From Holophagales bacterium (GTDB taxonomy: Bacteria; Acidobacteriota; Thermoanaerobaculia; UBA5066), in assembly GCA_016714815.1 (NCBI GenBank), contig JADKBZ010000016.1:116609-180608 (forward strand): a DNA stretch of 64,000 bases, in the 5' to 3' direction. A program made the translations under genes and the position numbers. Of this stretch, positions 8,136 through 64,000 are shown one piece after another. Below the pieces are notes generated by a model. The model had not been told where the DNA came from. It worked only from the letters and a program-made list of their open reading frames with translations, and made no database searches. Position 1 is the stretch's first letter; the number at the start of each line of letters is the position of its first letter.

Positions 8136-9752
8136 ATGAGCTCGACTTCCCTCTCGACCCGCTGGCGCTCGGACGGGCGCCCGCCCGCCTTCACGCCGGC
8201 CGAGATCGGGAGCGCCCTCGAGGAGGTCCGCTCGACGGCCCACGTCGTCCGCGAGGAGGGGGGCCGGATCGGCCTCGGCCTCGGGGGTGAGCTGGGGCCG
8301 CCGGCCGCGGACGCCGCGGGCACCTTCGCCCACCTGGCGTCGCTGCCGCCTCTCTACCCGGAGTGGCTCGGGGACAGGACCTTCTGCGAGACGCACGGCA
8401 CCCGCTTTCCCTACGTCACCGGCTCGATGGCGAACGGGATCGCCTCGGTGCGGCTCGTCTCCGAGATCGCCCGCACGGGCGGACTCGGCTTCTTCGGGGC
8501 GGCGGGCCTCTCGCCGGCGCGCGTCGAGGGGGCCCTGGACGAGCTGCGGCGGGAGCTGGGCGATGCGGGCCTTCCCTGGGGCGCGAACCTGATCCACAGC
8601 CCGAACGAGCCCGAGCTCGAGGAGGCCGTGACGGATCTCTACCTGCGCCGGGGCGTGACGCGGGTGGAGGCGTCGGCCTACATGGCGCTCACTCCGGCGG
8701 TCGTCCGATACGCGGCGACGGGTCTCACGACGGACCCCACGGGGCGGGTTCGAAGGAGGAACCATCTCTTCGCGAAGATCTCGCGCGAGGAAGTGGCGAT
8801 CCGGTTCCTCGAGCCTGCGCCGGCGGAGATCCTCCGGACGCTGGTGGAGAGGGGGCGGCTGACGGCTGCCGAGGCGCGGCTCGCCGAAACGCTGCCGCTC
8901 GCCGAGGACGTCACGGCAGAAGCCGACTCCGGCGGCCACACCGACAACCGGCCGCTGACCGCTCTCCTTCCGGCGATCCTCGGCCTGCGCGACCGGGTCG
9001 CCGCGGAACGCGGCTACGGGCAGGCGGTCCGCGTCGGGGCCGGCGGCGGACTCGGAACGCCCTCGTCGGTCGCGGCGGCGTTCGCCCTCGGCGCCTCCTA
9101 CGTCGTCACCGGCTCGGTGAACCAGGCCTGCGTCGAGAGCGGCCTCCACGAGAGCGGCCGCGCGCTGCTGGCGGAAGCCGGGATCGCCGACGTGATCATG
9201 GCGCCCGCGGCCGACATGTTCGAGCTCGGCGTCACGGTGCAGGTGCTGCGCCGGGGGACGATGTTCGCCGTCCGCGCGAAGAAGCTCTACGAGCTCTACC
9301 GCTCCTGGCCGTCGCTCGAGAGCATCCCGGCCGCCGAGAGGGAGAAGGTCGAGACGCAGCTCCTCCGGGCGACCTTCGCGGAGGCGTGGGAGACGACGCG
9401 CGCCTTCTGGGCCGCCCGTGACCCGCGCGAGGTGGCGAGGGCCGAGGCCGACCCGAAGCACCGGATGGCGCTCGTCTTCCGTTCGTACCTCGGCCTCTCG
9501 AGCCGCTGGGCCGTCGCCGGCGAACCGGGCCGCGGCACCGACTATCAGATCTGGTGCGGCCCGGCGATGGGCGCCTTCAACTCGTGGGTCCGCGGGAGCT
9601 TCCTGGAAAAGCCCGCGGACCGGTCCGCCGTCCAGGTCGCCCGCAACCTGATGGAGGGGGCCGCCGCCGTGACGCGCGCGCAGCAGCTGCGCGCCTCCGG
9701 CCTCGCCGTCCCTTCGTCCGCCTTCGACTTCCGCCCCCGTCCCCTCGCCTGA
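8136..9752 (+). CDS. pfaD: PfaD-family trans-acting enoyl reductase (nitronate monooxygenase-like FMN enzyme) of a PUFA/polyketide synthase
   Basis: Typical PfaD sequence: ...GLGFFGAAGLSPARVEGALDELRRELGDAGLPWGANLIHSPNEPELE... and ...GGGLGTPSSVAAAFALGASYVVTGSVNQACVESG. An alternative ATG lies at 8109. The gene is translationally linked to pfaA. Confidence 0.9.
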   Translation: MSSTSLSTRWRSDGRPPAFTPAEIGSALEEVRSTAHVVREEGGRIGLGLGGELGPPAADAAGTFAHLASLPPLYPEWLGDRTFCETHGTRFPYVTGSMANGIASVRLVSEIARTGGLGFFGAAGLSPARVEGALDELRRELGDAGLPWGANLIHSPNEPELEEAVTDLYLRRGVTRVEASAYMALTPAVVRYAATGLTTDPTGRVRRRNHLFAKISREEVAIRFLEPAPAEILRTLVERGRLTAAEARLAETLPLAEDVTAEADSGGHTDNRPLTALLPAILGLRDRVAAERGYGQAVRVGAGGGLGTPSSVAAAFALGASYVVTGSVNQACVESGLHESGRALLAEAGIADVIMAPAADMFELGVTVQVLRRGTMFAVRAKKLYELYRSWPSLESIPAAEREKVETQLLRATFAEAWETTRAFWAARDPREVARAEADPKHRMALVFRSYLGLSSRWAVAGEPGRGTDYQIWCGPAMGAFNSWVRGSFLEKPADRSAVQVARNLMEGAAAVTRAQQLRASGLAVPSSAFDFRPRPLA

Positions 9753-9787
9753 GCTTCTCCAGACGCCCGTCCGATGCCGAGGCACCT

Positions 9788-16150: not shown

Positions 16151-16154
16151 CTTC

Positions 16155-41785: not shown

Positions 41786-42175
41786 TCGGCTGGCTGACCC
41801 CGAAAGAAATTCTCAGAGACCTGTTGTAAAAAGCCGGGCCTCGCGCAGCTTAGCTATAGCGGACAAAGGCTGAGTCCGCCTTTTCCTCCTCGATCAGGAG
41901 GCAGAGGAGGCTGTGAGGAGTGTGAACAGAAAACTCTCTTCCTCGACCGGGTGCCAGCGGCGGTCCGTCCCGGCAGGGCCAAGGGGAAGTGAATGGATGC
42001 CGAAGTCGTCGACCGGACTCTCCGGCTGTCGCGAAACGCCAGGCGTGTACTCGCGGCCCTTACGCCACGCGCGGGCGCCACCTAATAGTCGAACCGCCAG
42101 CCACTCTGCAGGTAAGGGCGCACGCAAGCGGCGTCCGCAAGCTGCGACGGCGTCCGGAAGCAAGAAGGAGTAGAG

Positions 42176-44983: not shown

Positions 44984-45891
44984 AGAAGCTTCTTCTCGTC
45001 GTCACTCTCGGCGTCGCTGCGACCGCTCTTCCCGCGGCGGAACAGAAGCGTTACTACGTCCCGCTCATTCATGCCCAGACGGGGTTGGAGATCATTCCGG
45101 GTGCGACTCCGGAAGATACTCAAGTGATTCAAACGCTGTGGATGGGGAATATCTCAGCGTTCAATTCGAGCAACGTAACGGCTTCGATCACACCCACGGC
45201 CGTATACGGAGGGTTCGTTTTCAGGCCGGGCAGCCACTCGATAGGTCTCGAAGCGGGAACAGGCGATCAGTTCGTCCGGTGGCCGTATGCGGGATTTGCA
45301 GGACCCAGTATCGGTCCGGTCGGCTTCGCCGAGCTGATGGCGGACACCGGGATGGTCGTGAACGCGGGGGTCGAGAAGGCTCAATACTGCGCGGGATGCC
45401 CCATACCGGATCGGGTCGATCAAGCGGCCCTGGTCTCGCAGGGGCGCTCGGCGATTCCCGTGTTCGAGGAGCTGTTCCCGGCAGGCCGATCGGTCATCTG
45501 CGGCGAAGTCAACCTCGGGGCGCCCCGCCAAATCTGCGGGAAGCCGGCGAATCAGCAGTACCCGCGACGCGTGAACGTGACGCTCTTCAACGCCGGAAGC
45601 GCCCCCGCGACGTTCAAGGTCGAGGCGATTCCGCTCTACACGGACCCCGACCCGATCTTCTCGCAGACGGTCACCGTGGCGGCGAAGGACGTGATCCAGC
45701 TGAACGACGTGCCGATTCCGCGGATCGAGAACGGGCACATGACGGTCGACTTCGACGTCTACGTCTGGATCCGGATCCACTGCGACCAGCCCTTCCTGGC
45801 GTACGCCAGCTCGATCTTCGAGGGTGGGGCGACGGGGTCGATGCCCTTCGAAGTCTTCACGCCACGGCTGGCCGCCGAGACCGGGCCGTGA
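44980..45891 (+). CDS. secreted hypothetical protein (about 303 aa) downstream of the S8 peptidase
   Basis: The TTG start overlaps the peptidase stop. Signal peptide LKKLLLVVTLGVAATALPAAE. Cys-containing, with no recognised domain. Confidence 0.45.
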   Translation: MKKLLLVVTLGVAATALPAAEQKRYYVPLIHAQTGLEIIPGATPEDTQVIQTLWMGNISAFNSSNVTASITPTAVYGGFVFRPGSHSIGLEAGTGDQFVRWPYAGFAGPSIGPVGFAELMADTGMVVNAGVEKAQYCAGCPIPDRVDQAALVSQGRSAIPVFEELFPAGRSVICGEVNLGAPRQICGKPANQQYPRRVNVTLFNAGSAPATFKVEAIPLYTDPDPIFSQTVTVAAKDVIQLNDVPIPRIENGHMTVDFDVYVWIRIHCDQPFLAYASSIFEGGATGSMPFEVFTPRLAAETGP

Positions 45892-45916
45892 GAAATAGCT
45901 AGGTCAGTTCCCGGAT

Positions 45917-47116
45917 GGAGGGGCGCCGCCGGAGGCGGCGGCGCCTACCCCTTCTCCGCCGGTGCCTACCCCTTCTCTTCCGGCGCCCCGAGCCGCGCGA
46001 CGACCTTCGCCAGGTCGACGCCGAAGGCGGTCTTGACCTGCTCGACGAGCTGGATCCCCTGCGTCACGCGCGCGTCCGCCGGGAGGTAGGAGATCCGGTC
46101 GACCCTGACGCTCTGGATCGTCTCGACGAGAGACGACATGACGGTCTGGAGCTTCTGCATCAGGAAGATGTCGCGGGCGTTGGGGCCGGCGGCCTTCCAG
46201 GTTTCGATCATCTGCGTCAGGACGGCGGCGGTCGCGCGGCCGTCCTCGACGATCTTGGCGGCCTTGCCGCGCGCCTCGGCCTGCCTCTTCTCCATGTCGG
46301 CGCGGGCGGGGGCGACGACGTCGGCGTCGAGCTGGAGGCGGACCTGCTCGATGCGCGCCTGCTGGACCTTCAGCTCGGCCTCGGCCTTGGCGATGGCGGT
46401 GGTGACCTTTCCGACCGCTTCGGCGACCATCGCCTCGCGGCCGGTCTCGCACTGCATGATCCGCTTGTCGGCTTCGGCGCGGGCGATCGCGCCGTCGGCG
46501 TCGATCAGGGCGAGGCGCGACGCGAGGCCGTTCTCGGCTTCCCGCATGGTGGCCTCGGCGTGGGCCTGCGCCTCGGCGATCCGGGCGCTCTTGTCGAGGG
46601 CGGCCGACTGCTTGCGGCCGAGGGAGTTGAGGTAGCCGACGTCGTCGGAGACGTTCTGGACCTTCAGGACGTCGAGCGTCAGGCCGAGGCGGGAGAGGTC
46701 GTGCTCGGCCTCCTCGAGGAGCTTCTCGGCGAAGCGGAGCTTGTCCTGGTTGACCTCCTCGGGGGTGAGCTGGGAGAGAACGCCGCGGAGGTTGCCTTCG
46801 AGGGTGTCCTTGGCGACCTGGATGATCTGCGGGCGGCCTTTGCCGAGGAGGCGCTCGAGGGCGTTGTTGAGGAGCGGCTGGTGGCCGGCGACCTTGAGGT
46901 TGGCGACGCCGGCGACGGTGAGCGGGATGCCTCCCTTGGAGTAGGCGTTGCTCACGGCGACGTCGACGGTCATGTTGGTGATGTCCATCCGGTCGACGCG
47001 CTCCAGGAGCGGAGTACGCAGGGAGCTGCCCCCCTTGACGATCCGGTAGCCGACGGCGCGGCCGTCGACGGTCGACTTGCCGCCGGAGAAGACGAGGACC
47101 TCGTTCGGGCTGCAGA
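45917..47116. repeat. right copy of the ~1.2-kb flotillin direct repeat
   Basis: See 40571-41758. The 3' flank of this copy (45917-45960) also carries a ~35-bp remnant resembling the extreme pfa3 tail. Confidence 0.85.
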
Positions 47117-53044: not shown

Positions 53045-53893
53045 GTGGCGGTTCTGGGGACGGGAACGCTCCTCGGCCGATACCAGCTCGAAGAGCGGAT
53101 CGGGGCGGGAGGGATGGCGGAGGTCTGGCGCGCGCTCGACCTCGGCCTCGAGAGACACGTCGCCGTGAAGGTGATGTCGATCGACGCCGGCTCGACGGAC
53201 GCCTCCTTCGTCTCCCGCTTCCTCAGGGAGGCGAAGCTCTCGGCGCGCCTCGAGCACCCCCACATCCTCCCGATCTACGACTTCGGCCAGGTGGACGAGC
53301 TCCTCTTCCTCGTCATGCCGCTCCTGCCCGGCGGGACTCTCCGGGACCGGGCGCGGGGCGGCGTTTCGGGGATCCTCGCGATGGAGTGGCTCCGGGCGCT
53401 CGCCTCCGCCCTCGACCACGCGCACGCCGAGGGGATCGTCCACCGCGACGTCAAGCCGGCCAACGTCCTCTTCGACAAGACGGGGCGCCTCTTTCTCGCC
53501 GACTTCGGCCTCGCCCGGGAGGCGCGGAGCGAGAACCTCACGGTGGCCGGGACGGTTCTCGGAACGCCCGTCTACATGTCCCCCGAGCAGGTGCGGGGCG
53601 ATCAGGCCGGACCGCGTTCCGACCAGTACGCCCTCGGCGTCCTCGCCTACTACCTGCTGGCGGGGACCCCGCCGTTCGAGGCGAACTCGGTCTTCGTCGT
53701 CATGGAGAAGACCCTGCGCGAGGAGCCGGCGCTCCCGTCCGCGATGAACCCCGTCCTCCACCGCTCGGTCGACTACGTCCTCCTGAAGGTCCTCGAGAAG
53801 CGGCCCACGGAGCGGTTCGAATCGTGCGGAGCCTTCGTCGAAGCGCTCGAGCGCGCCTCGCGGCGCGGGACCGACCCGGGCGGGCACCCGTAG
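53045..53893 (+). CDS. minimal Hanks-type Ser/Thr protein kinase (kinase domain only)
   Basis: Gly-loop IGAGGMAEVW, VAVK, HRDVKPANVLF, DFGLA and GTPVYMSPE. GTG start at 53045; the ORF opens at 52925. Confidence 0.8.
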   Translation: MAVLGTGTLLGRYQLEERIGAGGMAEVWRALDLGLERHVAVKVMSIDAGSTDASFVSRFLREAKLSARLEHPHILPIYDFGQVDELLFLVMPLLPGGTLRDRARGGVSGILAMEWLRALASALDHAHAEGIVHRDVKPANVLFDKTGRLFLADFGLAREARSENLTVAGTVLGTPVYMSPEQVRGDQAGPRSDQYALGVLAYYLLAGTPPFEANSVFVVMEKTLREEPALPSAMNPVLHRSVDYVLLKVLEKRPTERFESCGAFVEALERASRRGTDPGGHP

Positions 53894-53998
53894 ACCCTCG
53901 CGCAGGCGATCCCCCGAACCGCTCTCGGAGCGCTCGAGTGGAGGGGAAGCGCCGTCAGGCGCCGCGGGGAGGCTCGTGGCGAGCCTCCCCGATCCATT

Positions 53999-54436
53999 TC
54001 AGCTTCGACCGTAGATGTACCCGGTCAGGTACTCGACCTGCTGGTGATCGGCGTCGGCGCGGAACGCGTTGAGGTCGCCGATCGAGAGAACGCCGAGAAG
54101 GCCATGGTCCCCGGCGACGGGAACGTGGCGGATCCGGTGCTCCTTCAGGATCGTCTCGATCTCGTCGATCTCCCGATCGGGGCGGACGACGATGACGTCG
54201 ACCGTCATCACGTCTCGTACGGCGGTCGTCGCGGCATCCTTCCCCTGGGCCACGACGCGCCAGAGGACGTCGCGCTCGGTGAAGATGCCCTTGAGGGTTT
54301 CTCCCTCCGCGACGACGAGCGAGCCGATGCCGTGGTCATACATGAGGCGGGCGGCGTCCTTCACTGTGGCGTCCGGCGAGACGGTGATCACGCCGCCGGA
54401 CTTCTTCTGGGAGAGGAGGTCTCGTGCGGTCGGCAT
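53999..54436 (-). CDS. CBS-pair domain protein
   Basis: Two CBS motifs (VITVSPDATVKDAARLMYDHGIGSLVV and VMTVDVIVVRPDREIDEIETILKEHRIRHVPV). Confidence 0.85.
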   Translation of the reverse strand: MPTARDLLSQKKSGGVITVSPDATVKDAARLMYDHGIGSLVVAEGETLKGIFTERDVLWRVVAQGKDAATTAVRDVMTVDVIVVRPDREIDEIETILKEHRIRHVPVAGDHGLLGVLSIGDLNAFRADADHQQVEYLTGYIYGRS

Positions 54437-54513
54437 GGGGCCCTTCTATACGGCCCGGTGCCGCCGCGTCAACGCTGTGGCGCAGCGAAAGCCGCTTGCT
54501 ATCCTGCCCGGCG

Positions 54514-54996
54514 ATGCCCGACGCCGCTCTCTGGATCCTCGCCCTCCTCCTCGTCCTCGCCGGGATCGCGGGGGCGGTCCTCCCGGTAATCCCGGGCGCC
54601 CCGCTCGTCTTCGGGGGCCTCCTCCTCGCGGCGTTCGTCGACCATTTCGAGAAGGTGGGGTGGTTCCCGCTCGTCGTGATCGGGTTCCTGATGGTCCTCA
54701 CGTTCGTCGTCGACGTCGTGGCGACGGCGCTCGGCGCGAAGAAGGCCGGGGCGAGCCCGCTCGCCCTCGTGGGCGCGGGCGTCGGGACGGTCGCCGGCCT
54801 CTTCTTCGGCTTCGTCGGGGTGATCGTGGGGCCGTTCGTGGGGGCGGCGCTCGGGGAGTACGCCGCCCGCAGGGACCTGCGTCAGGCGGGGCGCGCCGGA
54901 TTCGGGACGTGGATCGGCATCCTCCTCGGGAGCGCGGCGAAGATCGCCCTGATGCTCGGAATGGTCGGCGTCTTCGCCGTGGCGTGGGTCTTCTGA
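54514..54996 (+). CDS. DUF456 family membrane protein
   Basis: Four TM helices with a Gly-rich DUF456-like pattern. ATG at 54514. Confidence 0.65.
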   Translation: MPDAALWILALLLVLAGIAGAVLPVIPGAPLVFGGLLLAAFVDHFEKVGWFPLVVIGFLMVLTFVVDVVATALGAKKAGASPLALVGAGVGTVAGLFFGFVGVIVGPFVGAALGEYAARRDLRQAGRAGFGTWIGILLGSAAKIALMLGMVGVFAVAWVF

Positions 54997-55754
54997 GCGC
55001 CCTCTCCTGGCCCGAAGGAGGGGGAGCCCTCTTCTCCGGTCTTCCCGAAGGGGTCTCGGCCGGCTTCACGACCCTCGCCCTCGTCCCGGACGACCTCGAC
55101 GCGGACGCGGGGGCTCGGCGCTTCGCCGGTCTCCTCGGCGAGCCCTGTGCTCCCGTCGCGCGGCTGAAGCAGGTTCACGGGGCCGTGGTCGTGGAGCCGG
55201 GAATCGTCCCTCCTCGAGAGGTCGTCGTCGCGGGCGCCGGAGACGCCCTCGTCACGACGGAGCGGGGGCTCGTCCTGGCGATCGCCACCGCCGACTGCGT
55301 TCCGGTCGTTCTCGTCGACGCCGAGGCGGGCGCGCTCGCGGTGGTCCACGCCGGCTGGCGCGGGACGGCGGCGCGCATCGTCGACGCCGCGCTCGACGCC
55401 CTCGTGGTGCGCGGAGCGCGGATCGACCGCATCCAGGCCCTTTTCGGGCCGTCCATCTCGGGAGCCGTCTACGAGGTGGGGCCGGAGGTCCTGGCGGCGC
55501 TCGACGGGACTCTGCCGGCCGCGGCGGTGGCGCCGGGGCGTGGAGACCGGAGCTGGCTCGACGTGGCGGCGTGCAACGAGGCGGCGCTCCGGGCGCGCGG
55601 GGTCGGGGCGGACCGGATCTTCCGGCCGCGGCTCTGCACGTTCCTCGAGAAGGGGCGGTTCTCGTCCTTCCGGAGGGACGGCGCGAACGCGGGGAGGATC
55701 TATACCGGGGCGGTGCTCCGGGAACGGCCCACGGCTCCCGCGGCGCTTTCCTGA
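54984..55754 (+). CDS. pgeF: YfiH/PgeF family (laccase-domain, purine nucleoside phosphorylase-like) protein
   Basis: The conserved ADCVPVVL and HAGWRGT motifs are present. The start is uncertain; the GTG at 54984 overlaps the DUF456 gene by 13 bp. Confidence 0.8.
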   Translation: MGLLSALSWPEGGGALFSGLPEGVSAGFTTLALVPDDLDADAGARRFAGLLGEPCAPVARLKQVHGAVVVEPGIVPPREVVVAGAGDALVTTERGLVLAIATADCVPVVLVDAEAGALAVVHAGWRGTAARIVDAALDALVVRGARIDRIQALFGPSISGAVYEVGPEVLAALDGTLPAAAVAPGRGDRSWLDVAACNEAALRARGVGADRIFRPRLCTFLEKGRFSSFRRDGANAGRIYTGAVLRERPTAPAALS

Positions 55755-55781
55755 GGCCGGGCGACCTCCCGGGCGCGGCCG

Positions 55782-57611
55782 CTACTTCTTCTTCCAGGCG
55801 CCGCTTCGGGGTGGGGCCGGCTTGTCTCGCACCACGACCCGGCCCTTTCCCTCGGCCTTCGCGTCGTAGAGCGCCGCGTCGGCCGTGGCGAGGACGCCGA
55901 GGGGGTCGTGGTGCCCCGACACGACCGCGACGCCGACGCTCGCGCCGACCCGGGGGCCGTCGTAGCCCTCGGGGAGCGGGACCGCGGCCGCCCGCTCGCA
56001 GATCCTCTCGGCCGCGGCGCGGGCCTCCTCTGCGTTCGTCCCTTCGAGGAGGACGACGAACTCGTCTCCCCCGATCCGTCCGACGAGGTCCCCGGGACGG
56101 ACGGCGTCGAGGAAGATCTGCGCGAAGGCGCGCAGGAGGTCGTCCCCGGCCGCGTGCCCGGACCGGTCGTTGACCTCCTTGAAGTTGTCGAGGTCGATCA
56201 GGAGGAGGGACGAGGGGAGCCCGCGCTCGGCCCGGGCGACGAGCCGGGCGAGGTTCTCCTCGACGACGCGGCGGTTCGGGAGGTCGGTGAGAGGGTCGTG
56301 CCGCGCCAGGTGGACGATGGTCTCCTCGATGCGCTTGCGCTCGGTGACGTCGCGCTTGACGGCGACGAAGTGGGCGATCTCGCCCTTCCCGTCCCTCACG
56401 GGGGTGATCGTCTGGTCCTCGACGTAGAGCGAGCCGTCCTTGCGGCGGTTCGTGACCTCGCCCTCCCAGGTCCTGCCGGCGAGGATCGTCTTCCAGAGCT
56501 CCTCGAAGAAGGGAGGGGAGTGAAGGCCCGACTTCAGGAGGGCCGGGGTCCTCCCGACCGCTTCCTCCCGCGTGTAGCCGGTCAGGGTGGTGAACGCCGG
56601 GTTGACCCACTCGATCAGCCCGTCGCGGGCCGTGATGACGACGGAGTGCCTCACGCCGTCGAGGGCGAGCGACTGGAGCTCGATCTCGGTCAGTCCGGCG
56701 GCGTGGTCGAGAGAGAGCGAGACCTGCTGCGTCAGGCGGCGCACGAGGTCGACCGTCCTCGGGTCGAAGGCGTCGGCGCGCCGGGCGTGGACCGTGAGGG
56801 CACCGAGGACGGTGCCCCGGGCGGTGAGCGGGAGGGCGATGGAGGCGCCGATCTCCCGGCCCGCGTCGCGGTTCCTCCAGGAGAGGCCGAACGAGGAGTC
56901 GCGCTCGGCCTCGACCCTCTGGACGGTCCCCGTCCGGATCGCCGCCCCGGTGATCCCGCCTTCCGTGGACGGGACGTCCCAGCGGACCTCCTGAGCGTTC
57001 GCGCACGGCGCGTTCGGCCCGGCGATGCCGCTCAGCCGGACGGTTCCGTCGGCCTGGCGCTGGCCGATGGAGACGAGCGCGAAACGGAAGATGCCGGCGA
57101 CGCGGTGGCAGATGAAGGAGTGAATCGAGTCGAGGGGCTCGCGCTGGAGGAGCCGGCTGTTCACCTCGGCCAGCAGGGCGAGGACCTCCTCGTTGCGCCT
57201 CGCTTCCGTCCGGTCGACGCCGACGGCCCAGGCGTCCCAGCCGTCCACCGGGTAGGTCAGGGAGAGGCTCGACCACGAGACGGTCTTCACCGTCCCGTGT
57301 TTCGTCGTCAGCTCGGTCTCGACGTTGCGGAAGGCCCGTCCGTGGTGCTGCCGCAGCTCGCTCATCCGGGCGCGCTGCAGCGGGTCGGGATAGAGCAGGT
57401 GGAACACGTTCGCGTTCCCGAGGACTTCCTGGGATGTGTAGCCCGTGACCCGTTCGCACTCGTGGTTCCAGAAGGCGAACAGCCCGTCCCTGTCCACGGC
57501 GCTCACCAGAACGGGGAGCCCGTTCAGGACGAGCCGCAGCTCGGACAGCTCCGCCCAGAGCGTCTGAAGCTCGGGGACGTGGTCGAAGCTGAGACTCTCT
57601 GGGAGCTTCAT
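55782..57611 (-). CDS. PAS-GAF-PAS-GGDEF diguanylate cyclase
   Basis: C-terminal GGDEF domain ([21 protein letters not shown]...RIGGDEFVV). Upstream are PAS-like ([43 protein letters not shown]) and GAF-like segments. Confidence 0.85.
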
Positions 57612-57768
57612 GGACCTCCGGGGGGAAGGAACGTGGAGACGGACTCTCTACAGGGGGCGCTGCGGGCAAATGATCGGGAATCCGGTGGCGCCCCGTCAAG
57701 GTTTTCTTTTCCCGGTCCGAATCGGGCCGGCCCGGGCGCCGGCCGGCGGTTCCCGTAGACTCCGGCGC

Positions 57769-58480
57769 GTGCCGAAAAGAGCTGATCTGAAGTCGATCCT
57801 GGTCCTCGGTTCCGGGCCGATCATCATCGGCCAGGCGTGCGAGTTCGACTACTCGGGGACCCTGCCTGCGTCCTGCGCAAGGAAGGGTTCCGGGTCGTTC
57901 TCGTCAACTCGAACCCGGCGACGATCATGACCGACCCGGACTTCGCCGACGCGACCTACATCGAGCCGCTCGACGTCGCGACCGTGGAGAAGGTCATCGC
58001 GAGGGAGCGCCCCGACGCCCTCCTCCCGACGGTCGGCGGGCAGACGGCGCTGAACCTCGCGGTCGCCCTCGACAAGGCCGGTGTCCTCGCCCGGTACGGC
58101 GTGGAGCTCCTCGGCGCCTCGGCGCACTCGGTGGAGCTGGGGGAGGACCGTCTCCTCTTCAAGGAGGCGATGCAGAAGGCGGGGCGTCGACGTCCTGCGC
58201 TCCGGCATGGCCCGGACCGTCGACGAGGGCGCGAGATCGCGCACCCGTTCGGCTTCCCGGTCGTCGTCCGCCCCTCCTACACGCTCGGCGGCACGGGAGG
58301 CGGGATCGCTTTCAACGCCGACGACTTCCAGGCGATCGTCAAGCGCGGCCTCCTCCTCTCGCCCGTCAATGAGATGCGTCACGCGGCCGAGCGTCTCTGC
58401 AAAGGCGTCCCATCGCCCGAACGGCTTCCGCGAATCGTCCCGAGTCAAATATCAGGAAGCCTCAGTAACCACCAACCGCG
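57769..58480 (+). pseudogene. carB: carB (carbamoyl-phosphate synthase large subunit) remnant: first ~200 codons only, with at least three frameshifts, truncated at an island boundary
   Basis: [31 protein letters not shown] then shifts frame to ...[36 protein letters not shown]... The GVDVLRSGMARTVDEGA segment is again out of frame. Homology to CarB fades after GLLLSP (about 58.37 kb), and the remaining ~2.5 kb of the gene is absent. Confidence 0.7.
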
Positions 58481-58550
58481 GGTAAACGTGGCCTGCCACT
58501 CGTAAGACGTCAATTCCCTCGACGCGAGGGAACCCTCGGAGGCAATCGTC

Positions 58551-59183
58551 GTGGGACCAGAGCAGCACCTTCATCTGGGAGCGGTCGAGACGTTTCTGCG
58601 CCAGATAGGGACAGTTCGTCGGCAACCCCCATCCGGAGATTCTGGAATTCGCCTACCTGCATTCAAATCAGGTGACATCTGGGCCGCCGCTCAGGTCGTC
58701 GTTGCTCATCGCCACCTGACCAGTCGCCGCCGCAGAATCGCTTTGGTACCTGATGAGCCAGCAGCAGGCCCCGGGCCTGAAACCACGGTCGCTGGCTTCC
58801 CTCGAGCAGGCGCAAGGAAGCGATTCGACGTGTCGAGCGGGCTCCGCCAGGCTCTCGGTCTCGATGGCGGCGTCGAGTATCCGGTGCAACTCAAGGCCAT
58901 CGATCTTGCCGACGAGAGCCGGCCACAGATCATTGTGCCTCTGACACCCCTCGAGAACCTCGACCAGCTAGAGACTCTTAAGAAGACGCTAGGCCGTAGC
59001 AGCCCGGGCGAGCTATTCCCGCATGAGCTGACGCGCTCGGATCTCGTCAGGTCGGGGCGGTGGTCGATGGCTATCCTGAAGGAACTGGGTAAGAAACGTT
59101 TCGATCATGCCAGGATGCCCGGCCTTGGCGGCTCTTTGCAACCAACGATGCTGCGCAATCACCTCGTGGGAGGCGTCATTTAG
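58551..59183 (+). CDS. hypothetical protein (lower-GC island)
   Basis: An ORF with no recognised motifs. It may be a gene fragment. Confidence 0.3.
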   Translation: MGPEQHLHLGAVETFLRQIGTVRRQPPSGDSGIRLPAFKSGDIWAAAQVVVAHRHLTSRRRRIALVPDEPAAGPGPETTVAGFPRAGARKRFDVSSGLRQALGLDGGVEYPVQLKAIDLADESRPQIIVPLTPLENLDQLETLKKTLGRSSPGELFPHELTRSDLVRSGRWSMAILKELGKKRFDHARMPGLGGSLQPTMLRNHLVGGVI

Positions 59184-59982
59184 GCGGCAGTCTGCGACAA
59201 CCGAGACATCGAGCGCCACCCGCACCCGTTGTCGCAGACTGGCCAAGGCCTTCAAGTCACTGTCAAGATCAGCCTTCTACTCGACGGAAGTCAACTCCCA
59301 GCCGTTCCAGATCGCTGCCGACGCGTTCGAGCCCTATGTCTCAAGCAAAGGAGAGGCGGAACGGCTGGCTGTGCTTCGCCCATATCTTCTGGATAGCGGC
59401 CTAGATGCTCTCCCTCCGGCTACAGGCCTGTTCTGGGTGAAGGAAGCGTGCAGAGAGTTCGGCGCGCTTCTGGAGGTGCGCTCCGGACCCTTCGTGCTGG
59501 TTTGGGATTTCGCCGACGAGCCACACCAGAACCGTCCGAGAGTATTTAGCAGGATCAAGGCATGGTCTACCCGGCCGGTGTCACTCTATCCACTTTCTGG
59601 AGTGCAGGTTGCGGTCCGGATTCCCCTTACGCAAACGCAGAAGCGTTCGACCAACGCGCTTACGAAGGCCCTAAGCAGCGACCGAGCGCCGTCAGTGGTG
59701 CTACGGCCGGGTCTAGATGATGACGGGCCGGGCAGCTCGTCGCCGGATGACGAACAGGGACACCGCCTGCTCTCGGTCAGGGACAAGATAACCGCCATCG
59801 GCATCGCGCAGGGCCGTCTAAAGAGCGACGTTTCCCGTCTCATCGCGATTGACATTCTCGGCCTAAGACTGGACACCAAGGTCATGTATGTTCTGGGTGC
59901 GGAGATACTTTCGCGACGCCAAAGCCGGGCGGATGAACCTGGTGCTGCTCAATGCAGACTCGCTATTGGTGCACAAGACTGA
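59107..59982 (+). CDS. hypothetical protein (lower-GC island); it overlaps its neighbours in other frames and may be degraded
   Basis: An ORF with no recognised motifs. Confidence 0.25.
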   Translation: MPGCPALAALCNQRCCAITSWEASFRRQSATTETSSATRTRCRRLAKAFKSLSRSAFYSTEVNSQPFQIAADAFEPYVSSKGEAERLAVLRPYLLDSGLDALPPATGLFWVKEACREFGALLEVRSGPFVLVWDFADEPHQNRPRVFSRIKAWSTRPVSLYPLSGVQVAVRIPLTQTQKRSTNALTKALSSDRAPSVVLRPGLDDDGPGSSSPDDEQGHRLLSVRDKITAIGIAQGRLKSDVSRLIAIDILGLRLDTKVMYVLGAEILSRRQSRADEPGAAQCRLAIGAQD

Positions 59983-62900
59983 GTTTGAGCGCTTGGTACG
60001 CGAGGGCCGCGAGGAGGCGAACGGACCTCGATGCTCGGGTGTCATCGCGTTTGACAGTGGGGGCGGGGTCCACTTTTTAGGGTTGGGCTCCGATGCAGAG
60101 AACGCACTGCTTCAAGCCTTGGAGGCGGAACCGACGGATCAAGTGGAGACCCTGCTGACTCTGGAGACTAGGTATCCGGAAGTGATGCCGCTACTCGGAG
60201 ACGACCTCGCCAACCGGCGTCTTCGGTTGGCGGTTGACAAAGAGACGGTTCTTAGGGCGGCGCAAGACACAGCATCGGCACTCCTGAAAGCCTGGTTGCA
60301 GCACGAGAAGAGCCCAGCGGCCTATTGCGATCGTTGGTTCTTGCTCCCCTCCCGTTCGTATTCCTCAGGATTCTTTGAAGTTAGACAACTCTTGCTTCAC
60401 TCGGGTGCCTCGACGGCCTTCCGAGTCTGGTTGACTGCAGAGCTACGACGATACTCTCCGACGGCCATTGTGACGCTGGGTCGGGTGGCGACGGACCTAC
60501 TCCGGGACGCCTGGCCGGACGGCGAAGGGGCGCCAAGAAGGATCTCGATTCCGGATCCGCATGAACCCATGGCTTTGTCGCGGGTGTCGGAGATACCGAG
60601 GAACAGCCGGGTCGCCTTCTTTTCCGACGTGATCGGAAGCGGAAGGACCATAGCGGCCGCAATTGGCCGCGTGCCTCAGGGTGCATCGGCGGTTGTGCTA
60701 ACGGTCGTGGACGCTCGCACGGAAGAGGATTCCCCCGAGGAGGGCGCGACGCATCAGAGTGGCGTGGAAGTCCGGTCGATCCTGCGTCGTCCCCTCGTTC
60801 TTCGAGCCCGCCTCGAATCGAAGGACAGGGCGGAGGCGTGGGAGATCGATCCAGACACGCACGCGCCCCTCTCTTCAGAGGGCCGTCGCCCGGAGGCCAT
60901 CAGGGGAGATTTCGGCGCATTCTTGAATGCGTGTGAGGGCCTTCCGGGGGTTCTGCGATCTGGGCACTTCACTTCAGGTGGGAATCACCTCAGCTACCTG
61001 TTCGACTTCGGCGCATACCTAGAGAGCGGTGACTCGCTCGGTTTGGTGGAGTTGCTTCGGTCAGAGTACGCGAAAGCGCTCGAGGGAGGCACGCCGGACG
61101 CGATCCTGTACCCCACCGACTCCCCCGGAATGCGCCAGTTGGCAGAGACGTTGGCCAAGCCCCTCCTGATCCCAGCGGTTGTGGGAATCGAGAAAGAACA
61201 CCTCGAGAAGAGGAGAGCGCGAGCGAGAGCAGAGCGGTCCCTTGTGAGGGCTCTCGTTCTAGATGATGCCGCGGGGAGTGGAATCACGATCCGTGCATTC
61301 GTGGATCTTGCGGCCCGTTGGGGGGCTGAGCGGATCGTTGTAATCGTTCTCCTGAACCGTTGTTCTGACCGGGACGCGAGAGGTCTTGAGGGAATGAGGA
61401 GGTACGGCGGCGCCGCCGTAGACTTGCGCTTCGTGTTCGACGCGAACATCCCCGTCTATAGGAGCTCCGACTGTCCCCTTTGCGCTATTGACGCGCGCCT
61501 GAGGGCCATCGAGATGGATGCCCGCCGGGAGGGGTTTCAGGTGCTTGTGGAGCACATTCAGGCGAGGCGTATGCGGAACAGTCCTCAGTTGGTGGCGGGC
61601 AGGGAGATCGGAGGAGTGAAGGCGACGGGCTGGACGACGCTCGCACGAGAGTTGGAGCTTCGTAGACAGCTTGAACGGGCTCGCGTGAACCATGTCGACC
61701 GAGAAGAACTCGTGGACCTCATTTCGCGAACGAGCCCTTTCGACAGTCACTTCTTTGCGCTCATGACAGTCCTTGGGCGAGAGGCGGGGGCGGTCCTGCC
61801 AGCGCAGGAGGGGTTCCGAGACAGTTCCCAGAGTTCGTTAGCCGATGCAGTCTTCGAGCGAGGTCTCGCACTTCTGGGGAGAGAAGACGAGTTGGCGGAC
61901 GCGGAGCTTGAAATAGTGGTGCGCGCGCTTCGAACCGTGTGGCCCGAGCGGTTCCTGGTCGAGTGGAGGGCGTTTCGAAGGGCGGGCGCGCGAGTCACGA
62001 GAGACTGCATCTTCGCCACGGAGGTGCTGCTGGCGATGCAGGCGGAAGGAGAAAGGGAGAGGTTCGGCAGGGTGGCGGAGGCCTTCCGAGGGATCGGTGA
62101 GGGGCAACCGGCGCTATGGGTGCCGGATGCGCCGAGGCCACCCGTGCCGGATCTCGTCAGAAGCGTTCTAAAACACCTCAGGCACGGATTCGTTGGAAGG
62201 GTGACGTGGTTGCGAACCCTGGTCGGGAGGATCAAGAAGAGCGCCAAGGACGCGGCGAAGGAACGAGAAGCGCGAGAGACGTTGGAGCTGTACTGGGATG
62301 GAACCCTAGCGGAGATCGAGCGAGAGCTGATTGTCCGAGCGGTGGATCTGTATCAGGAAGTCTCGGAGCTGCCGGGACTTGCGGTGAGCGCCCGCGACAT
62401 TCGGCAGGGCACCGTTGAGCTTATGGCGGCGTTGGAGGATTGTCGGCGGCGCCGCGCGGGGCTTTCCCGCGGATCGGATGCGAACGAGTGGCTGCTCGAA
62501 GCGCTCGACAACGATCTGGAGCGAGTCTGCAGCTTTGTTGAGAGCTCAAGGCGGGGCCTTCTCTACCGGGGCACGCGCGCGCTGGTCAGCGATGTCGCGG
62601 CGGCGATTAGGAGGGTGGATGAGGAACCACGGTACCAGGAGATGGTCCGGAACCTCGGTATACAGCTGGCAACCCAGGGCGCCGAGAGGGGCACTCGGCT
62701 CTACGGATTGGTCCCGGCCAGTGAGCTCGACGAGCTGCTCGAGATCCTCGTGTCAAACTGGACGCATGCGTTTGAGGGGGCGCCGATGAGAGGACGGCGA
62801 GCGCGCGTGGTCTTGATCGAGGAAGCCGACATCCTGACGCTGCGAGTCCAGATCATGGACAACGGCCGACTCGACGAGACCCGGGAGTCGGGGTTGGGAC

Positions 62901-63031
62901 TAGAGAAGGCCCGGCGTATCGTGCAGGCGCTCAATGGGGAGTGGCAAAAACCGGCTGTTCGGGAGATAGAGGGGGAGCGGTGGACGGTTGGCTGGATTTA
63001 TGGGTGCCGTTCGGTGCAACGTCGCATGTGA
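59888..63031 (+). CDS. 1047-aa protein with two degenerate phosphoribosyltransferase (PRTase)-like domains and a C-terminal GHKL/HATPase_c domain; putative sensor kinase of a Detocs-like defence module
   Basis: PRTase-like PRPP-loop patterns: RVAFFSDVIGSGRTIAAAIGRVPQGASAVVLTVVD and RALVLDDAAGSGITIRAFVDLAARWGAERIVVIVLLNR. The C-terminus has an N box LLEILVSNWTHAF, a G1 box IMDNGRLDE and a G2 box GLGLEKARRIVQALNG. No clear H box was identified. An alternative start is the ATG at 59933. Confidence 0.55.
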   Translation: MFWVRRYFRDAKAGRMNLVLLNADSLLVHKTEFERLVREGREEANGPRCSGVIAFDSGGGVHFLGLGSDAENALLQALEAEPTDQVETLLTLETRYPEVMPLLGDDLANRRLRLAVDKETVLRAAQDTASALLKAWLQHEKSPAAYCDRWFLLPSRSYSSGFFEVRQLLLHSGASTAFRVWLTAELRRYSPTAIVTLGRVATDLLRDAWPDGEGAPRRISIPDPHEPMALSRVSEIPRNSRVAFFSDVIGSGRTIAAAIGRVPQGASAVVLTVVDARTEEDSPEEGATHQSGVEVRSILRRPLVLRARLESKDRAEAWEIDPDTHAPLSSEGRRPEAIRGDFGAFLNACEGLPGVLRSGHFTSGGNHLSYLFDFGAYLESGDSLGLVELLRSEYAKALEGGTPDAILYPTDSPGMRQLAETLAKPLLIPAVVGIEKEHLEKRRARARAERSLVRALVLDDAAGSGITIRAFVDLAARWGAERIVVIVLLNRCSDRDARGLEGMRRYGGAAVDLRFVFDANIPVYRSSDCPLCAIDARLRAIEMDARREGFQVLVEHIQARRMRNSPQLVAGREIGGVKATGWTTLARELELRRQLERARVNHVDREELVDLISRTSPFDSHFFALMTVLGREAGAVLPAQEGFRDSSQSSLADAVFERGLALLGREDELADAELEIVVRALRTVWPERFLVEWRAFRRAGARVTRDCIFATEVLLAMQAEGERERFGRVAEAFRGIGEGQPALWVPDAPRPPVPDLVRSVLKHLRHGFVGRVTWLRTLVGRIKKSAKDAAKEREARETLELYWDGTLAEIERELIVRAVDLYQEVSELPGLAVSARDIRQGTVELMAALEDCRRRRAGLSRGSDANEWLLEALDNDLERVCSFVESSRRGLLYRGTRALVSDVAAAIRRVDEEPRYQEMVRNLGIQLATQGAERGTRLYGLVPASELDELLEILVSNWTHAFEGAPMRGRRARVVLIEEADILTLRVQIMDNGRLDETRESGLGLEKARRIVQALNGEWQKPAVREIEGERWTVGWIYGCRSVQRRM

Positions 63032-63051
63032 CCTCGACTAGGAGGCGATTG

Positions 63052-63576
63052 ATGACAGAGCCCGAGATCCTCATAGTGGTTGACGATCGCCCCATGGACG
63101 TGAAGGCACTCAAGGACGCGCTAAAGTACGAGGGCCTCAGCGACGAGTTCAGCGTCATCGCTGTCGTGCCCGAGGAAGAGCACAAATATGTGGAGGGATC
63201 GGTACGACAGATTTCGCTCGGGCTCGCGGAACACGGACCGAGGGTTGCGGCCATCCTACTGGACTTGTCCTTTGAGGAACCGACGAGCCGAGACGGCGGA
63301 CTCTGGGGTGGCCTTAGGATTGCCAAGAAGCTGCGCGCTGGTAGGCCGACAGTTCCGATCATCGCGTTTACCGCGCTTCCGGCAAGCTCTCTGGATCTGA
63401 GGGAGTTGACGTTCTCTGACGCGCTTGATGGAGTGCTGCCAAAGCGGTGGGTGTTGGGAGAGGAATTCACCGCCGATGAATTCAGGAGATGCATCCGAAT
63501 GGCGAGAGAGAGAAGGGGCGAGCTACCTCCCAGAGACGAGACGAGCGCGTCCAGTCGGGTCGGCTACACGGGATAG
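63052..63576 (+). CDS. stand-alone receiver (REC) domain protein with a ~50-aa C-terminal tail
   Basis: SD AGGAGG sits before the ATG at 63052. The acidic pocket (ILIVVDD) and a phospho-acceptor Asp (AILLDLSF) are present, along with T (IIAFTAL) and K (VLPK). Confidence 0.75.
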   Translation: MTEPEILIVVDDRPMDVKALKDALKYEGLSDEFSVIAVVPEEEHKYVEGSVRQISLGLAEHGPRVAAILLDLSFEEPTSRDGGLWGGLRIAKKLRAGRPTVPIIAFTALPASSLDLRELTFSDALDGVLPKRWVLGEEFTADEFRRCIRMARERRGELPPRDETSASSRVGYTG

Positions 63577-63597
63577 TGGTAGCCGCAGCGTGAGCAG

Positions 63598-64000
63598 ATG
63601 GAGCTATCGACGCTTGAGAGAGAGCTGGGAACGGAGGACAGGTGGGAGGAGCAGGGCGGCATGACCTGGAGGTTGGGGACCTTGAGAGGGCAGCGTGTTG
63701 CTCTGCTGGCAGCGGGTGAGATGGGCCTTGTCGCAGGGGCTAAGCTGGCAAGCGCCGGCGTGCGTCTGTTTGATGCGAAGACGTTGGTGCTCGTCGGGAC
63801 GTGCGCTGGAAGGGCGGCGAAGGGCGTGAAGTGCGGAGATGTTGCCATTCCGGCAGCTTGCTTCAACTACCAGTTCGGGGAGTTCAAGGAGGGTCGATTT
63901 CTTCGACGGCTTGCGATGGAACGAGTGTTTGCAATACCGCTTCACCGCGGCGGTCGTGTCATTGTTGGGCCGGACCGGCTCCTCGGGGCATGCTTCCAAC
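63598..64000 (+). CDS. PNP/MTAN-family nucleoside phosphorylase-like protein, 5' part only (truncated by the window end); candidate effector
   Basis: GGMTWRLGTLRGQRVALLAAGEMGLVAGAKLASAGVRLFDAKTLVLVGTCAGRAAKGVKCGDVAIPAACFNYQF aligns with the MTAN core ([51 protein letters not shown]...VGDIVVS). It is in the same frame as the REC gene, after TAG-TGG-TAG. Confidence 0.55.
   Translation, partial: MELSTLERELGTEDRWEEQGGMTWRLGTLRGQRVALLAAGEMGLVAGAKLASAGVRLFDAKTLVLVGTCAGRAAKGVKCGDVAIPAACFNYQFGEFKEGRFLRRLAMERVFAIPLHRGGRVIVGPDRLLGACFQ

What the first reader, a model, noticed from the sequence alone, without database searches (positions are those of the whole stretch)
63052..64000. REC and PNP ORFs are in the same frame, separated only by TAG-TGG-TAG: apparent fission of a DtcC-like REC-PNP protein
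The REC ORF ends ...GYTG-TAG-W-TAG-PQREQ- and the PNP ORF starts 7 codons later in the identical frame. Canonical Detocs effectors are a single REC-effector polypeptide. The REC protein here has a ~50-aa post-receiver tail of the sort a linker would leave. The PNP ORF begins inside the phosphorylase fold, and the first beta-strand region (MKIGIIGAMEEE in MTAN) is not evident. Three readings are possible. It could be a recent nonsense split, giving a decaying system. It could be a two-protein variant, with no buffer REC and a free effector. It could also be stop-codon read-through or a sequencing error. Each changes how the system would be regulated.
Basis: seen in the sequence. Interest (0 to 1): 0.6.

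Follow-up and report, generated by a model that had tools for sequence, protein, structure and literature searches.

The report
Fused defence gene broken by misassembly
The apparent split of a receiver-plus-nucleosidase defence protein into two genes comes from three extra bases and one base change seen only in this metagenome contig, about 450 bases from its end, while seven other assemblies carry the same gene intact, so it is almost certainly an assembly artefact and not biology.

Summary
The REC ORF (63052-63576) and the PNP ORF (63598 to the window end) share a frame and are separated by TAG-TGG-TAG.

It is not a domain-boundary fission. Seven independent assemblies of the same locus (L001, L003-L008) carry one 418-aa REC-PNP gene. 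Relative to all seven, the window has three private 1-nt insertions (63551, 63570, 63600) and one C>T change (63591).

TAG-TGG-TAG is the out-of-frame reading of ATA GTG GTA GCC. These codons give I-V-V-A, the first beta-strand of the nucleosidase fold. The "PNP ORF" therefore lacks beta1.

The window is the last 64 kb of a 180,608-bp Holophagales MAG contig, and the PNP CDS is annotated "partial". Its final ~8 kb holds 105 private difference columns, 44 of them indels, packed into 14 short clusters. The partner gene (1500 aa elsewhere) is broken into three ORFs by them. K-mer assemblies of the same island are identical to each other.

Best reading (about 0.85): a consensus or polishing artefact near a long-read contig end. 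About 0.12: a private pseudogene. A functional two-protein variant or read-through is effectively excluded.

What really lies here is a two-gene, DtcB-less, Detocs-like module.

The parts
63052..64000 (+). The real gene: the 5' three-quarters (residues 1 to ~314 of 418) of one REC-PNP (DtcC-like) gene. It is interrupted in this contig and cut off by the contig end.
   Evidence: P0152 (418 aa) is encoded identically on 6 other contigs, and P0001 on a seventh. Deleting 3 bases and reverting T63591 to C restores exact P0152 sequence up to residue 291, except residues 97-98.
63052..63576 (+). Annotated 174-aa 'response regulator' ORF (MBK8597896.1). It holds the receiver domain (D11, D12, D71, T107, K131) and the linker, and is ended artificially by a frameshift.
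63551..63551 (+). Private 1-nt insertion (C; GTCCAG here, GTCAG elsewhere). This is the first frameshift.
   Evidence: Absent from all 7 other assemblies.
63570..63570 (+). Private 1-nt insertion (G; ACGGGAT here, ACGGAT elsewhere). This is the second frameshift.
63573..63584 (+). ATA GTG GTA GCC encodes I174-V-V-A177, beta1 of the PNP fold. Read one base out of frame, it gives the reported TAG-TGG-TAG (63574-63582).
   Evidence: Beta1 is E174-178 in the AF2 model. Pfam and NCBIfam matches of the intact protein start at residue 174.
63591..63591 (+). Private C>T change. It turns CGA (R180) into TGA in the true frame.
63600..63600 (+). Private 1-nt insertion (G; ATGGAG here, ATGAG elsewhere). 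It restores the original frame and creates the ATG used as the 'PNP start'.
63598..64000 (+). Annotated 134-aa 'hypothetical protein, partial' (MBK8597897.1). It is a PNP fragment that starts at the invariant Glu183, lacks beta1, and runs off the contig end.
63929..63984 (+). A further private cluster (4 indel events plus substitutions). It scrambles the helix at residues 293-306 of the PNP domain.
63339..63343 (+). Private 5-nt substitution cluster (Q97-W98 changed to G-R) in the receiver domain.
62991..63035 (+). Private cluster that rewrites the last ~15 residues of the partner protein. The canonical ...WTVVDLRVPSVPTSYVHSD becomes ...WTVGWIYGCRSVQRRM.
58551..63031 (+). Partner gene. It is one 1500-aa ORF in L005 (1407 aa as annotated in L003). 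Here it is broken into three ORFs (58551-59183, 59107-59982, 59888-63031) by private indels at 59053-59253 and 59910-59931. It has two PRTase-like domains and a divergent histidine-kinase-like C-terminus, with a candidate phospho-His codon at 62183-62185.
57766..58367 (+). Left copy of a ~0.6-kb duplication of the carB 5' end: a truncated remnant of codons 1 to ~204. In this contig it also carries private frameshifts. It marks the left edge of the ~6-kb, 62% GC insert.

Best explanation
The REC and PNP ORFs are one gene. In the organism's population it encodes a 418-aa protein: an N-terminal receiver domain, a ~20-residue disordered linker, and an MTAN-fold (PNP_UDP_1) nucleosidase.

In this contig, three spurious single-base insertions and one base change fall within 50 nt, at the end of the linker and in the first strand and helix of the nucleosidase domain. 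Together they push the reading through two other frames and back. This exposes two out-of-frame TAGs and creates an ATG.

The lesions belong to a set of tightly clustered, indel-rich, contig-private differences in the last ~8 kb of a metagenome-assembled contig that ends at window position 64000. The most likely cause is uncorrected consensus error in a long-read (Nanopore) population assembly near a contig end and next to a repeat, not mutation in a cell.

The biological unit is a two-gene module. A ~1500-aa sensor or kinase-like protein would phosphorylate D71 of the REC-PNP protein. This would switch on a nucleosidase of the Cap17/DtcC type and deplete ATP during phage infection.

Shown: the lesions, that they are private to this contig, the intact allele elsewhere, and the fold. 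Inferred: the sequencing-error cause, the kinase activity, and the defence role.
For: **The intact allele**
- A 418-aa fused protein has DNA ~100% identical to the window outside small clusters.
- The same protein is encoded identically on six further independent contigs from NCBI, JGI, Logan and ENA.

**The junction**
- All seven assemblies agree with each other and differ from the window at exactly 63551, 63570, 63591 and 63600.
- Removing or reverting these four positions restores the protein.
- Family alignment, Pfam, NCBIfam, the AF2 model (pLDDT 85) and Foldseek to MTAN (TMt 0.82-0.84) all place beta1 at residues 174-178 and an invariant Glu at 183. The lesion is therefore inside the domain.

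**Contig end**
- The window's two ORFs are MBK8597896.1 and MBK8597897.1. The second is annotated 'partial' at 134 aa, so the 180,608-bp MAG contig ends at about 64000.

**Pattern of private differences**
- There are 105 window-private difference columns, 44 of them indels, across 53-64 kb. They occupy only 14 of 110 100-nt bins, against 68 expected at random and a minimum of 55 in 10,000 simulations.
- None lie in 53.0-56.0 kb of flanking host DNA. 54 lie in 59-60 kb and 31 in 63-64 kb.
- L005, L006 and L008 show 0 differences among themselves over up to 3.9 kb.
- The sister MAG contig L003 has its own 58 private, clustered differences at other positions, and a frameshifted full-length carB near its own end.
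- In the window, the partner gene and the carB remnant are also broken by private indels.

**Sequencing method**
- L003's accession prefix fits the series of the Singleton et al. activated-sludge MAGs.
- These were built with Nanopore/CANU, Racon with --include-unpolished, medaka and Illumina Racon. [quoted passage not shown]

**Genetic code**
- TAG is an ordinary stop here, as in the 609-aa PAS-GGDEF gene called identically in L003 and L004. No tRNA gene lies in the window.
Against: - No reads were available, so support for the four positions could not be checked directly.
- The link between this MAG and the Nanopore study rests on the accession series and record style, not on a listed accession.
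- Some private clusters are multi-base substitutions (for example 63339-63343), not homopolymer-length errors. Only 10 of 15 single-base indels abut an identical base, which is not much above chance.
- A population bin could in principle have captured a rare, truly degraded allele.
Confidence: 0.85

Rival explanations
1. The split is a real, strain-private pseudogene. In the sub-population sampled by this contig, the two-gene island has been inactivated by frameshifts and a nonsense change, perhaps because a DtcB-less nucleosidase effector is autotoxic. In that case it is a decaying defence system.
For: - Both island genes and the carB remnant carry disruptive changes.
- PNP domains of this clade are toxic when deregulated (Rousset et al.).
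- MAGs of this kind are population bins, so a minority allele could be assembled.
Against: - The changes are packed into 14 short clusters with about 40% indel columns. The rest of the island is identical to all other copies.
- The 3 kb of adjacent host DNA has no private change, which does not fit time-dependent neutral decay.
- The same kind of private clustered noise, at different positions, occurs in the sister MAG, including in a housekeeping carB.
- The lesions lie within 450 nt of a contig end.
Confidence: 0.12
2. This is a functional two-protein variant: a stand-alone receiver acting as a buffer or regulator, plus a free nucleosidase effector translated from ATG 63598.
For: - The two ORFs are annotated as separate CDSs in the public record.
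- Stand-alone PNP relatives of ~265-280 aa exist in the family.
Against: - Genuine stand-alone relatives (P0014, P0017) include beta1. The window ORF starts at the invariant Glu after beta1 and lacks Pfam profile positions 1-24.
- It contains a second scrambled stretch at 63929-63984.
- No Shine-Dalgarno sequence precedes ATG 63598, whereas AGGAGG precedes ATG 63052.
- That ATG is itself created by a private inserted G.
Confidence: 0.01
3. The gene is recoded: TAG read-through or reassignment, or programmed frameshifting, yields a fused protein from this exact sequence.
For: Two in-frame TAGs lie three codons apart, and both ORFs share a frame.
Against: - Read-through would give SRVGYTGxWxPQREQM in place of the conserved VGSATRIVVAAARAD.
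- Following the true frame would need three separate shifts and would still meet a TGA.
- TAG ends other genes in the window, and there is no suppressor tRNA.
- Seven other copies need no recoding.
Confidence: 0.01

Closest known systems
Detocs (DtcA/DtcB/DtcC), the defensive two-component system of Vibrio alginolyticus (Rousset et al. 2023, bioRxiv 10.1101/2023.01.24.525353)
   Same: The effector is one polypeptide with an N-terminal receiver domain carrying a phospho-acceptor Asp and a C-terminal PNP-type nucleosidase. It lies directly downstream of a large protein with a kinase-like C-terminus. By analogy, the predicted logic is phosphotransfer that switches on ATP cleavage.
   Different: - There is no stand-alone receiver DtcB. 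Only two genes lie in the ~6-kb insert here and in the relative L012.
- The partner is ~1500 aa, with a GHKL-like N-terminal module, two PRTase-like domains and only sub-threshold HATPase_c matches, not a TPR-HisKA-HATPase kinase.
- The REC-PNP protein is only about 20-27% identical to other full-length REC-PNP proteins.
- The published detection rule requires all three genes.
5'-methylthioadenosine/S-adenosylhomocysteine nucleosidase (MTAN/Pfs; e.g. PDB 1jys, 1z5n, 3dp9); Pfam PNP_UDP_1
   Same: The fold matches (Foldseek E ~1e-17, TMt 0.82-0.84). Profile matches run from beta1 to the C-terminal helix. Acidic residues are conserved at the positions of MTAN Glu12 and Asp197 (E183 and D387); this residue equivalence rests on my own knowledge plus alignment A2.
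   Different: Sequence identity is 14-21%. The domain is fused to a receiver domain and sits in a mobile two-gene insert, not in a housekeeping context. The substrate is untested.
Cap17 ATP nucleosidase of CBASS and other defence-associated PNP effectors (Rousset et al. 2023); PADLOC models PDC-M60C and 'Effector, PN-superfamily'
   Same: The PNP domain matches PADLOC PDC-M60C (E 3.5e-21) and the PN-superfamily effector model (E 4.2e-13).
   Different: Only the PNP domain matches. The partner protein matches no PADLOC model.
Unnamed two-gene locus in a 6.67-Mb genome (L012: 1493-aa protein plus the 435-aa REC-PNP P0068)
   Same: - The gene order and sizes are the same.
- The partner proteins are collinear homologues (BLASTP E 1e-24 over ~1000 residues).
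- They share two PRTase-like motifs and candidate H, N, G1 and G2 kinase motifs.
- L012 has no DtcB either, and the locus lies among type I restriction-modification genes.
   Different: Identity is about 19-25%. L012's protein also shows a weak N-terminal STAS match.

Membership tests
Detocs | DtcC: a single polypeptide with an N-terminal receiver domain and a C-terminal effector (PNP in ~80% of systems) | tested here: met
   Met by the intact allele present in 7 other assemblies (418 aa). The window's literal sequence is split, by contig-private indels.
Detocs | DtcB: a stand-alone receiver-domain 'buffer' protein in the operon | tested here: not met
   Only two genes lie between the carB repeats (L005: 214-4716 and 4727-5983). 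The homologous locus L012 has none either. The window's 174-aa REC-only ORF is a truncation product, not a DtcB.
Detocs | DtcA: a sensor histidine kinase (phospho-His plus HATPase_c) encoded next to DtcC | tested here: inconclusive
   - HATPase_c matches are only sub-threshold: E 0.024 for the C-terminal 111 aa and E 0.0015 in the L012 homologue.
- Candidate H, N, G1 and G2 motifs are conserved between the two homologues.
- There is no HisKA hit. The AF2 single-sequence model is unusable at pLDDT 42. PDB and homologue searches were empty.
Detocs | Phage defence through ATP/dATP N-glycosidic cleavage that depends on phosphotransfer | not testable with these tools
   This needs plaque assays and LC-MS as in Rousset et al..
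PNP_UDP_1 / MTAN-fold nucleosidase | A complete alpha/beta fold beginning with strand beta1 | tested here: met
   - Intact allele: Pfam residues 174-405 match profile 2-222 of 233. NCBIfam MTAN residues 174-406 match 3-218 of 232. AF2 places beta1 at 174-178. Foldseek TMt is 0.82-0.84.
- The window's PNP ORF alone does not meet this feature. Its match starts at profile position 25.
PNP_UDP_1 / MTAN-fold nucleosidase | Conserved catalytic acidic residues (equivalents of MTAN Glu12 and Asp197) | tested here: met
   E183 and D387 are invariant in the 20-sequence alignment A2. D387 lies beyond the window and contig end. The equivalence to MTAN residues is from my own knowledge.
Response regulator receiver domain | A (beta-alpha)5 fold with an acidic pair, phospho-acceptor Asp, Thr/Ser and Lys | tested here: met
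   The AF2 model shows five beta-alpha units in residues 5-154. D11, D12, D71, T107 and K131 are present. The Pfam Response_reg match is only sub-threshold, at E 0.005-0.0085.
PADLOC candidate system PDC-M60 | Matches to its component proteins A, B and C | tested here: not met
   Only the PNP half matches PDC-M60C. The partner protein matches no PADLOC model.

The most novel reading that the evidence does not exclude
Behind the artefact, the intact locus may be a distinct, DtcB-less, two-gene relative of Detocs. A ~1500-aa protein (GHKL-like N-terminal module, two PRTase-like domains, a highly divergent histidine-kinase-like C-terminus) is paired with a REC-PNP effector. The pair is conserved in at least one distant genome next to restriction-modification genes (L012). 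Here it is carried on a ~6-kb low-GC insert that duplicated the 5' end of carB. If it defends against phage, it would show how a phosphorelay effector is kept safe without a buffer receiver, with PRTase-like domains as possible sensors.
Probability: 0.4. Interest if true: 0.45.

Novelty: not a real feature. Interest (0 to 1): 0.1.

Why it matters
Taken at face value, the split would suggest a new regulatory layout for a toxic ATP-depleting effector, either free PNP or a REC-only buffer derived from DtcC. It does not support that.

The practical lesson is that ORF fissions near the ends of long-read MAG contigs should be checked against independent assemblies before they are interpreted. The public records MBK8597896.1 and MBK8597897.1 describe fragments of one gene.

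The positive by-product is a clean description of the intact two-gene module and its conserved relative, which may deserve its own look as a Detocs variant.

Tried and rejected
- **Collection scans with P0001.** Genome contigs found only a 25%-identical Roseicyclus PNP. Metagenome contigs found nothing. The source genome is therefore not among the GTDB representatives.
- **Exact look-up of the REC ORF's contig.** Nothing was on record. The source was identified through cluster membership instead.
- **Suppressor tRNA or TAG reassignment.** There are no tRNAs in the window, and TAG ends ordinary genes.
- **Partner protein identity.**
  - A full-length homologue search found only the protein itself.
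  - A search with the C-terminal 301 aa found nothing.
  - PDB phmmer gave noise only.
  - The AF2 single-sequence model was unusable at pLDDT 42.
  - PADLOC gave no match.
- **Context look-ups for relatives.** P0004, P0040, P0031 and P0052 gave contigs too short to be informative. Only P0068/L012 helped.
- **Literature search for the MAG accessions.** The hits were unrelated. The supplementary table of Singleton et al. is cut before the JADK... accessions, so the link to that study stays inferred.
- **Homopolymer signature.** 10 of 15 single-base indels abut an identical base, which is suggestive but not decisive.
- **MAFFT placement of L007.** It was wrong in the long multiple alignment. L007 was left out of the counts and checked separately.

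Full report
**1. The observation**

- An ORF starts at ATG 63052, with AGGAGG six bases upstream, and ends at TAG 63574-63576.
- TGG and a second TAG (63580-63582) follow. Five codons later comes ATG 63598.
- That ATG opens an ORF in the same frame that runs off the window end.
- Pfam gives the first ORF a weak receiver-domain match. It gives the second a PNP_UDP_1 match that begins only at profile position 25 of 233. So the first strand of the fold is indeed missing from that ORF.

**2. An intact allele exists, and the TAGs are out-of-frame codons**

- A search with the read-through translation found one cluster, represented by P0001. This is a single 418-aa protein covering the whole query.
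- The protein alignment is identical except for short blocks that differ completely. This is the signature of frameshifts.
- At DNA level, window 62008-64000 and the P0001 contig L001 are identical apart from small clusters.
- At the junction the window has three extra bases (C 63551, G 63570, G 63600) and T instead of C at 63591.
- In the other sequence the stretch reads ...TCA GTC GGG TCG GCT ACA CGG ATA GTG GTA GCC GCA GCG CGA GCA GAT GAG..., which is S-V-G-S-A-T-R-I-V-V-A-A-A-R-A-D-E.
- The reported TAG-TGG-TAG is therefore A|TAG|TGG|TAG|CC, the I-V-V-A codons read one base out of register.
- In the window, VGSATR and IVVAAA are still readable in the two other frames. CGA has become TGA in the true frame.
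- Deleting the three bases and reverting the T restores the reference protein exactly up to residue 291, apart from residues 97-98.

**3. The lesion lies inside the nucleosidase domain, not at a domain boundary**

- An exhaustive HMMER search with P0001 found 1389 relatives. Their PNP homology typically begins at query residues 172-177.
- In a 20-sequence alignment, the consensus D..I..AL..EL aligns with TRIVVAAARADEL, with E183 invariant and A179 nearly so. Genuine stand-alone PNP relatives (P0014, P0017) include this strand.
- For the intact protein, Pfam matches residues 174-405 to profile positions 2-222. The NCBIfam MTAN model matches 174-406 to positions 3-218.
- An AlphaFold2 model built on that alignment has mean pLDDT 85. 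It shows a (beta-alpha)5 receiver in residues 5-154, a disordered linker at about 155-173, beta1 at 174-178 and helix 181-190.
- The PNP half superposes on MTAN crystal structures over their whole length, with TMt 0.82-0.84.
- The window's "PNP ORF" starts at the residue before E183. It lacks an integral strand of the central sheet and has no Shine-Dalgarno sequence. Its ATG is created by the inserted G.

**4. Seven assemblies against one**

- The window's two ORFs are exact matches to MBK8597896.1 ("MAG: response regulator [Holophagales bacterium]", contig of 180,608 bp) and MBK8597897.1 ("hypothetical protein IPN83_20425, partial", 134 aa).
- The partial flag and the length show that the contig ends at window position ~64000. 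The junction therefore lies about 400-450 nt from a contig end.
- The 418-aa protein P0152 is encoded identically on six other contigs:
  - a sister MAG (GCA_016722225.1);
  - a JGI metagenome;
  - two Logan assemblies;
  - two ENA assemblies.
- An eight-way alignment of the junction shows all seven others identical to each other. They differ from the window at exactly the four positions.

**5. The junction lesions are part of a wider, contig-private pattern**

- Window 53059-64000 was aligned with the other contigs. There are 105 window-private difference columns, 44 of them indels.
- They occupy only 14 of 110 100-nt bins. Random placement gives 68 on average, and never fewer than 55 in 10,000 trials.
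- Counts by region: none in 53.0-56.0 kb, 54 in 59-60 kb, none in 60-62 kb, and 31 in the last kilobase.
- They break the upstream partner gene into three ORFs. It is one ORF of 1500 aa in L005 and 1407 aa as annotated in L003.
- They rewrite the partner's last ~15 residues.
- They scramble a helix of the PNP domain at 63929-63984.
- They add frameshifts to the neighbouring carB remnant.
- By contrast, L005, L006 and L008 show no differences among themselves over up to 3.9 kb.
- The sister MAG contig L003 has its own 58 private, clustered differences at other positions. Its full-length carB is frameshifted near its own contig end.
- Elsewhere the window is clean. ORFs of 2243 and 2934 codons are uninterrupted.

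This pattern does not fit neutral decay. Decay would scatter substitutions across the island and would also mark the adjacent host DNA. It fits local failures of consensus polishing.

**6. Likely source of the errors**

- L003's accession prefix (JADKGR) falls within the run of WGS prefixes listed for the 1083 activated-sludge MAGs of Singleton et al. 2021. The stored table is cut at JADJZ, so this link is inferred.
- Those MAGs were assembled from Nanopore reads with CANU. They were polished with Racon (--include-unpolished), medaka and one round of Illumina Racon.
- A repeat lies just downstream and explains why assemblies break here (see section 8).

**7. Rival readings**

- *Real private pseudogene.* This cannot be excluded without reads. 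It is disfavoured by the clustering, the high indel share, the clean flank, the equivalent noise in the sister MAG, and the closeness to the contig end.
- *Functional two-protein variant.* It is excluded by the missing beta1, the second scrambled stretch, and the artificial ATG.
- *Read-through or reassignment of TAG.* This would not recreate the conserved sequence. TAG ends ordinary genes here and no tRNA is present. Following the true frame would need three shifts and would still meet a TGA.

**8. What is really there**

- The last 5.6 kb of the window has 62% GC against ~72% for the host.
- In L003, the carB 5' end (from -3 of the start codon to about codon 204) occurs twice, 6644 nt apart.
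  - The left copy is a truncated remnant, equal to window 57766-58367.
  - The right copy continues as full-length carB.
- Between the copies lie only two genes.
- The first encodes a ~1500-aa protein.
  - It has two PRTase-like domains with weak Pfam and NCBIfam matches.
  - Its N-terminal region has GHKL-like motifs. This is my reading of the sequence.
  - Its C-terminus has a sub-threshold HATPase_c match at E 0.024.
- The second gene is the REC-PNP.
- A collinear homologue of the large protein (BLASTP E 1e-24 over about 1000 residues) sits directly upstream of a REC-PNP gene (P0068). This is in a 6.67-Mb genome, among type I restriction-modification genes.
- That homologue gives sub-threshold HATPase_c, PRTase and STAS matches.
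- The two proteins share candidate H, N, G1 and G2 kinase motifs.
- Neither locus has a stand-alone receiver.

**9. Comparison with known systems**

- The effector has the DtcC architecture of Detocs. In Detocs a kinase phosphorylates a REC-PNP protein that cleaves ATP. A separate receiver, DtcB, buffers leaky signalling. Detection requires all three genes.
- Here the DtcC criterion is met by the intact allele. The DtcB criterion is tested and not met. The DtcA criterion is inconclusive.
- The locus therefore works like a Detocs by inference, but it is not a member by the published definition.
- PADLOC matches only the PNP domain, to PDC-M60C and the PN-superfamily effector model.

**10. Verdict**

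The apparent fission is not a biological feature.
- It is most likely an assembly artefact (about 0.85) and at most a private pseudogene (about 0.12).
- Interest in the finding as stated is low.
- The intact two-gene module is a plausible new variant of two-component-type defence and could be followed up separately.

Noticed in passing
window 57766-58367 and beyond the window end; L003 4698-5309 and 11342-11947: The ~6-kb, 62% GC, two-gene insert is flanked by a ~0.6-kb direct duplication of the carB 5' end (96-98% identity, 6644 nt apart). The left copy is a truncated remnant. The right copy starts 3 nt before the start codon and continues as full-length carB. This layout is what a single-crossover (Campbell-type) insertion of an element carrying a carB 5' fragment would leave. 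No integrase is present.
   Followed up: partly
window 58551-63031 (L005 214-4716): The partner protein is one 1500-aa ORF elsewhere. It has GHKL-like motifs near the N-terminus, two PRTase-like domains and a divergent kinase-like C-terminus. Word-based searches found no sequence relatives, but a collinear homologue exists in L012 next to a REC-PNP gene, and that homologue has a weak STAS match.
   Followed up: partly
L003 11345-14567: In the sister MAG, the full-length carB is itself frameshifted at about 13.7-13.8 kb, less than 1 kb from that contig's end. This is an independent sign of end-of-contig consensus errors in this MAG series.
   Followed up: partly
window 59053-59253: This is the noisiest stretch of the window: about 50 private difference columns in 200 nt, many of them indels, inside the GHKL-like region of the partner gene. 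It looks like unpolished long-read consensus.
   Followed up: partly
window 9422-16150 and 16056-24857: Two very long intact ORFs of 2243 and 2934 codons. The first is a type I polyketide synthase module (KS-AT-ACP-KR by Pfam). They show that most of the contig is free of frameshifts.
   Followed up: partly
window 42000-46000: A second low-GC patch (62-63% against ~72%). It contains a 935-aa subtilase-family (Peptidase_S8) ORF at 42176-44983 and ORFs with no Pfam match. It may be another acquired segment.
   Followed up: no
L012 1050-13270: The distant two-gene homologue sits between type I restriction-modification components (Methylase_S, DUF6161, HsdM-like) and near IS21 and IS66 transposases. 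This is a defence-island-like context.
   Followed up: no
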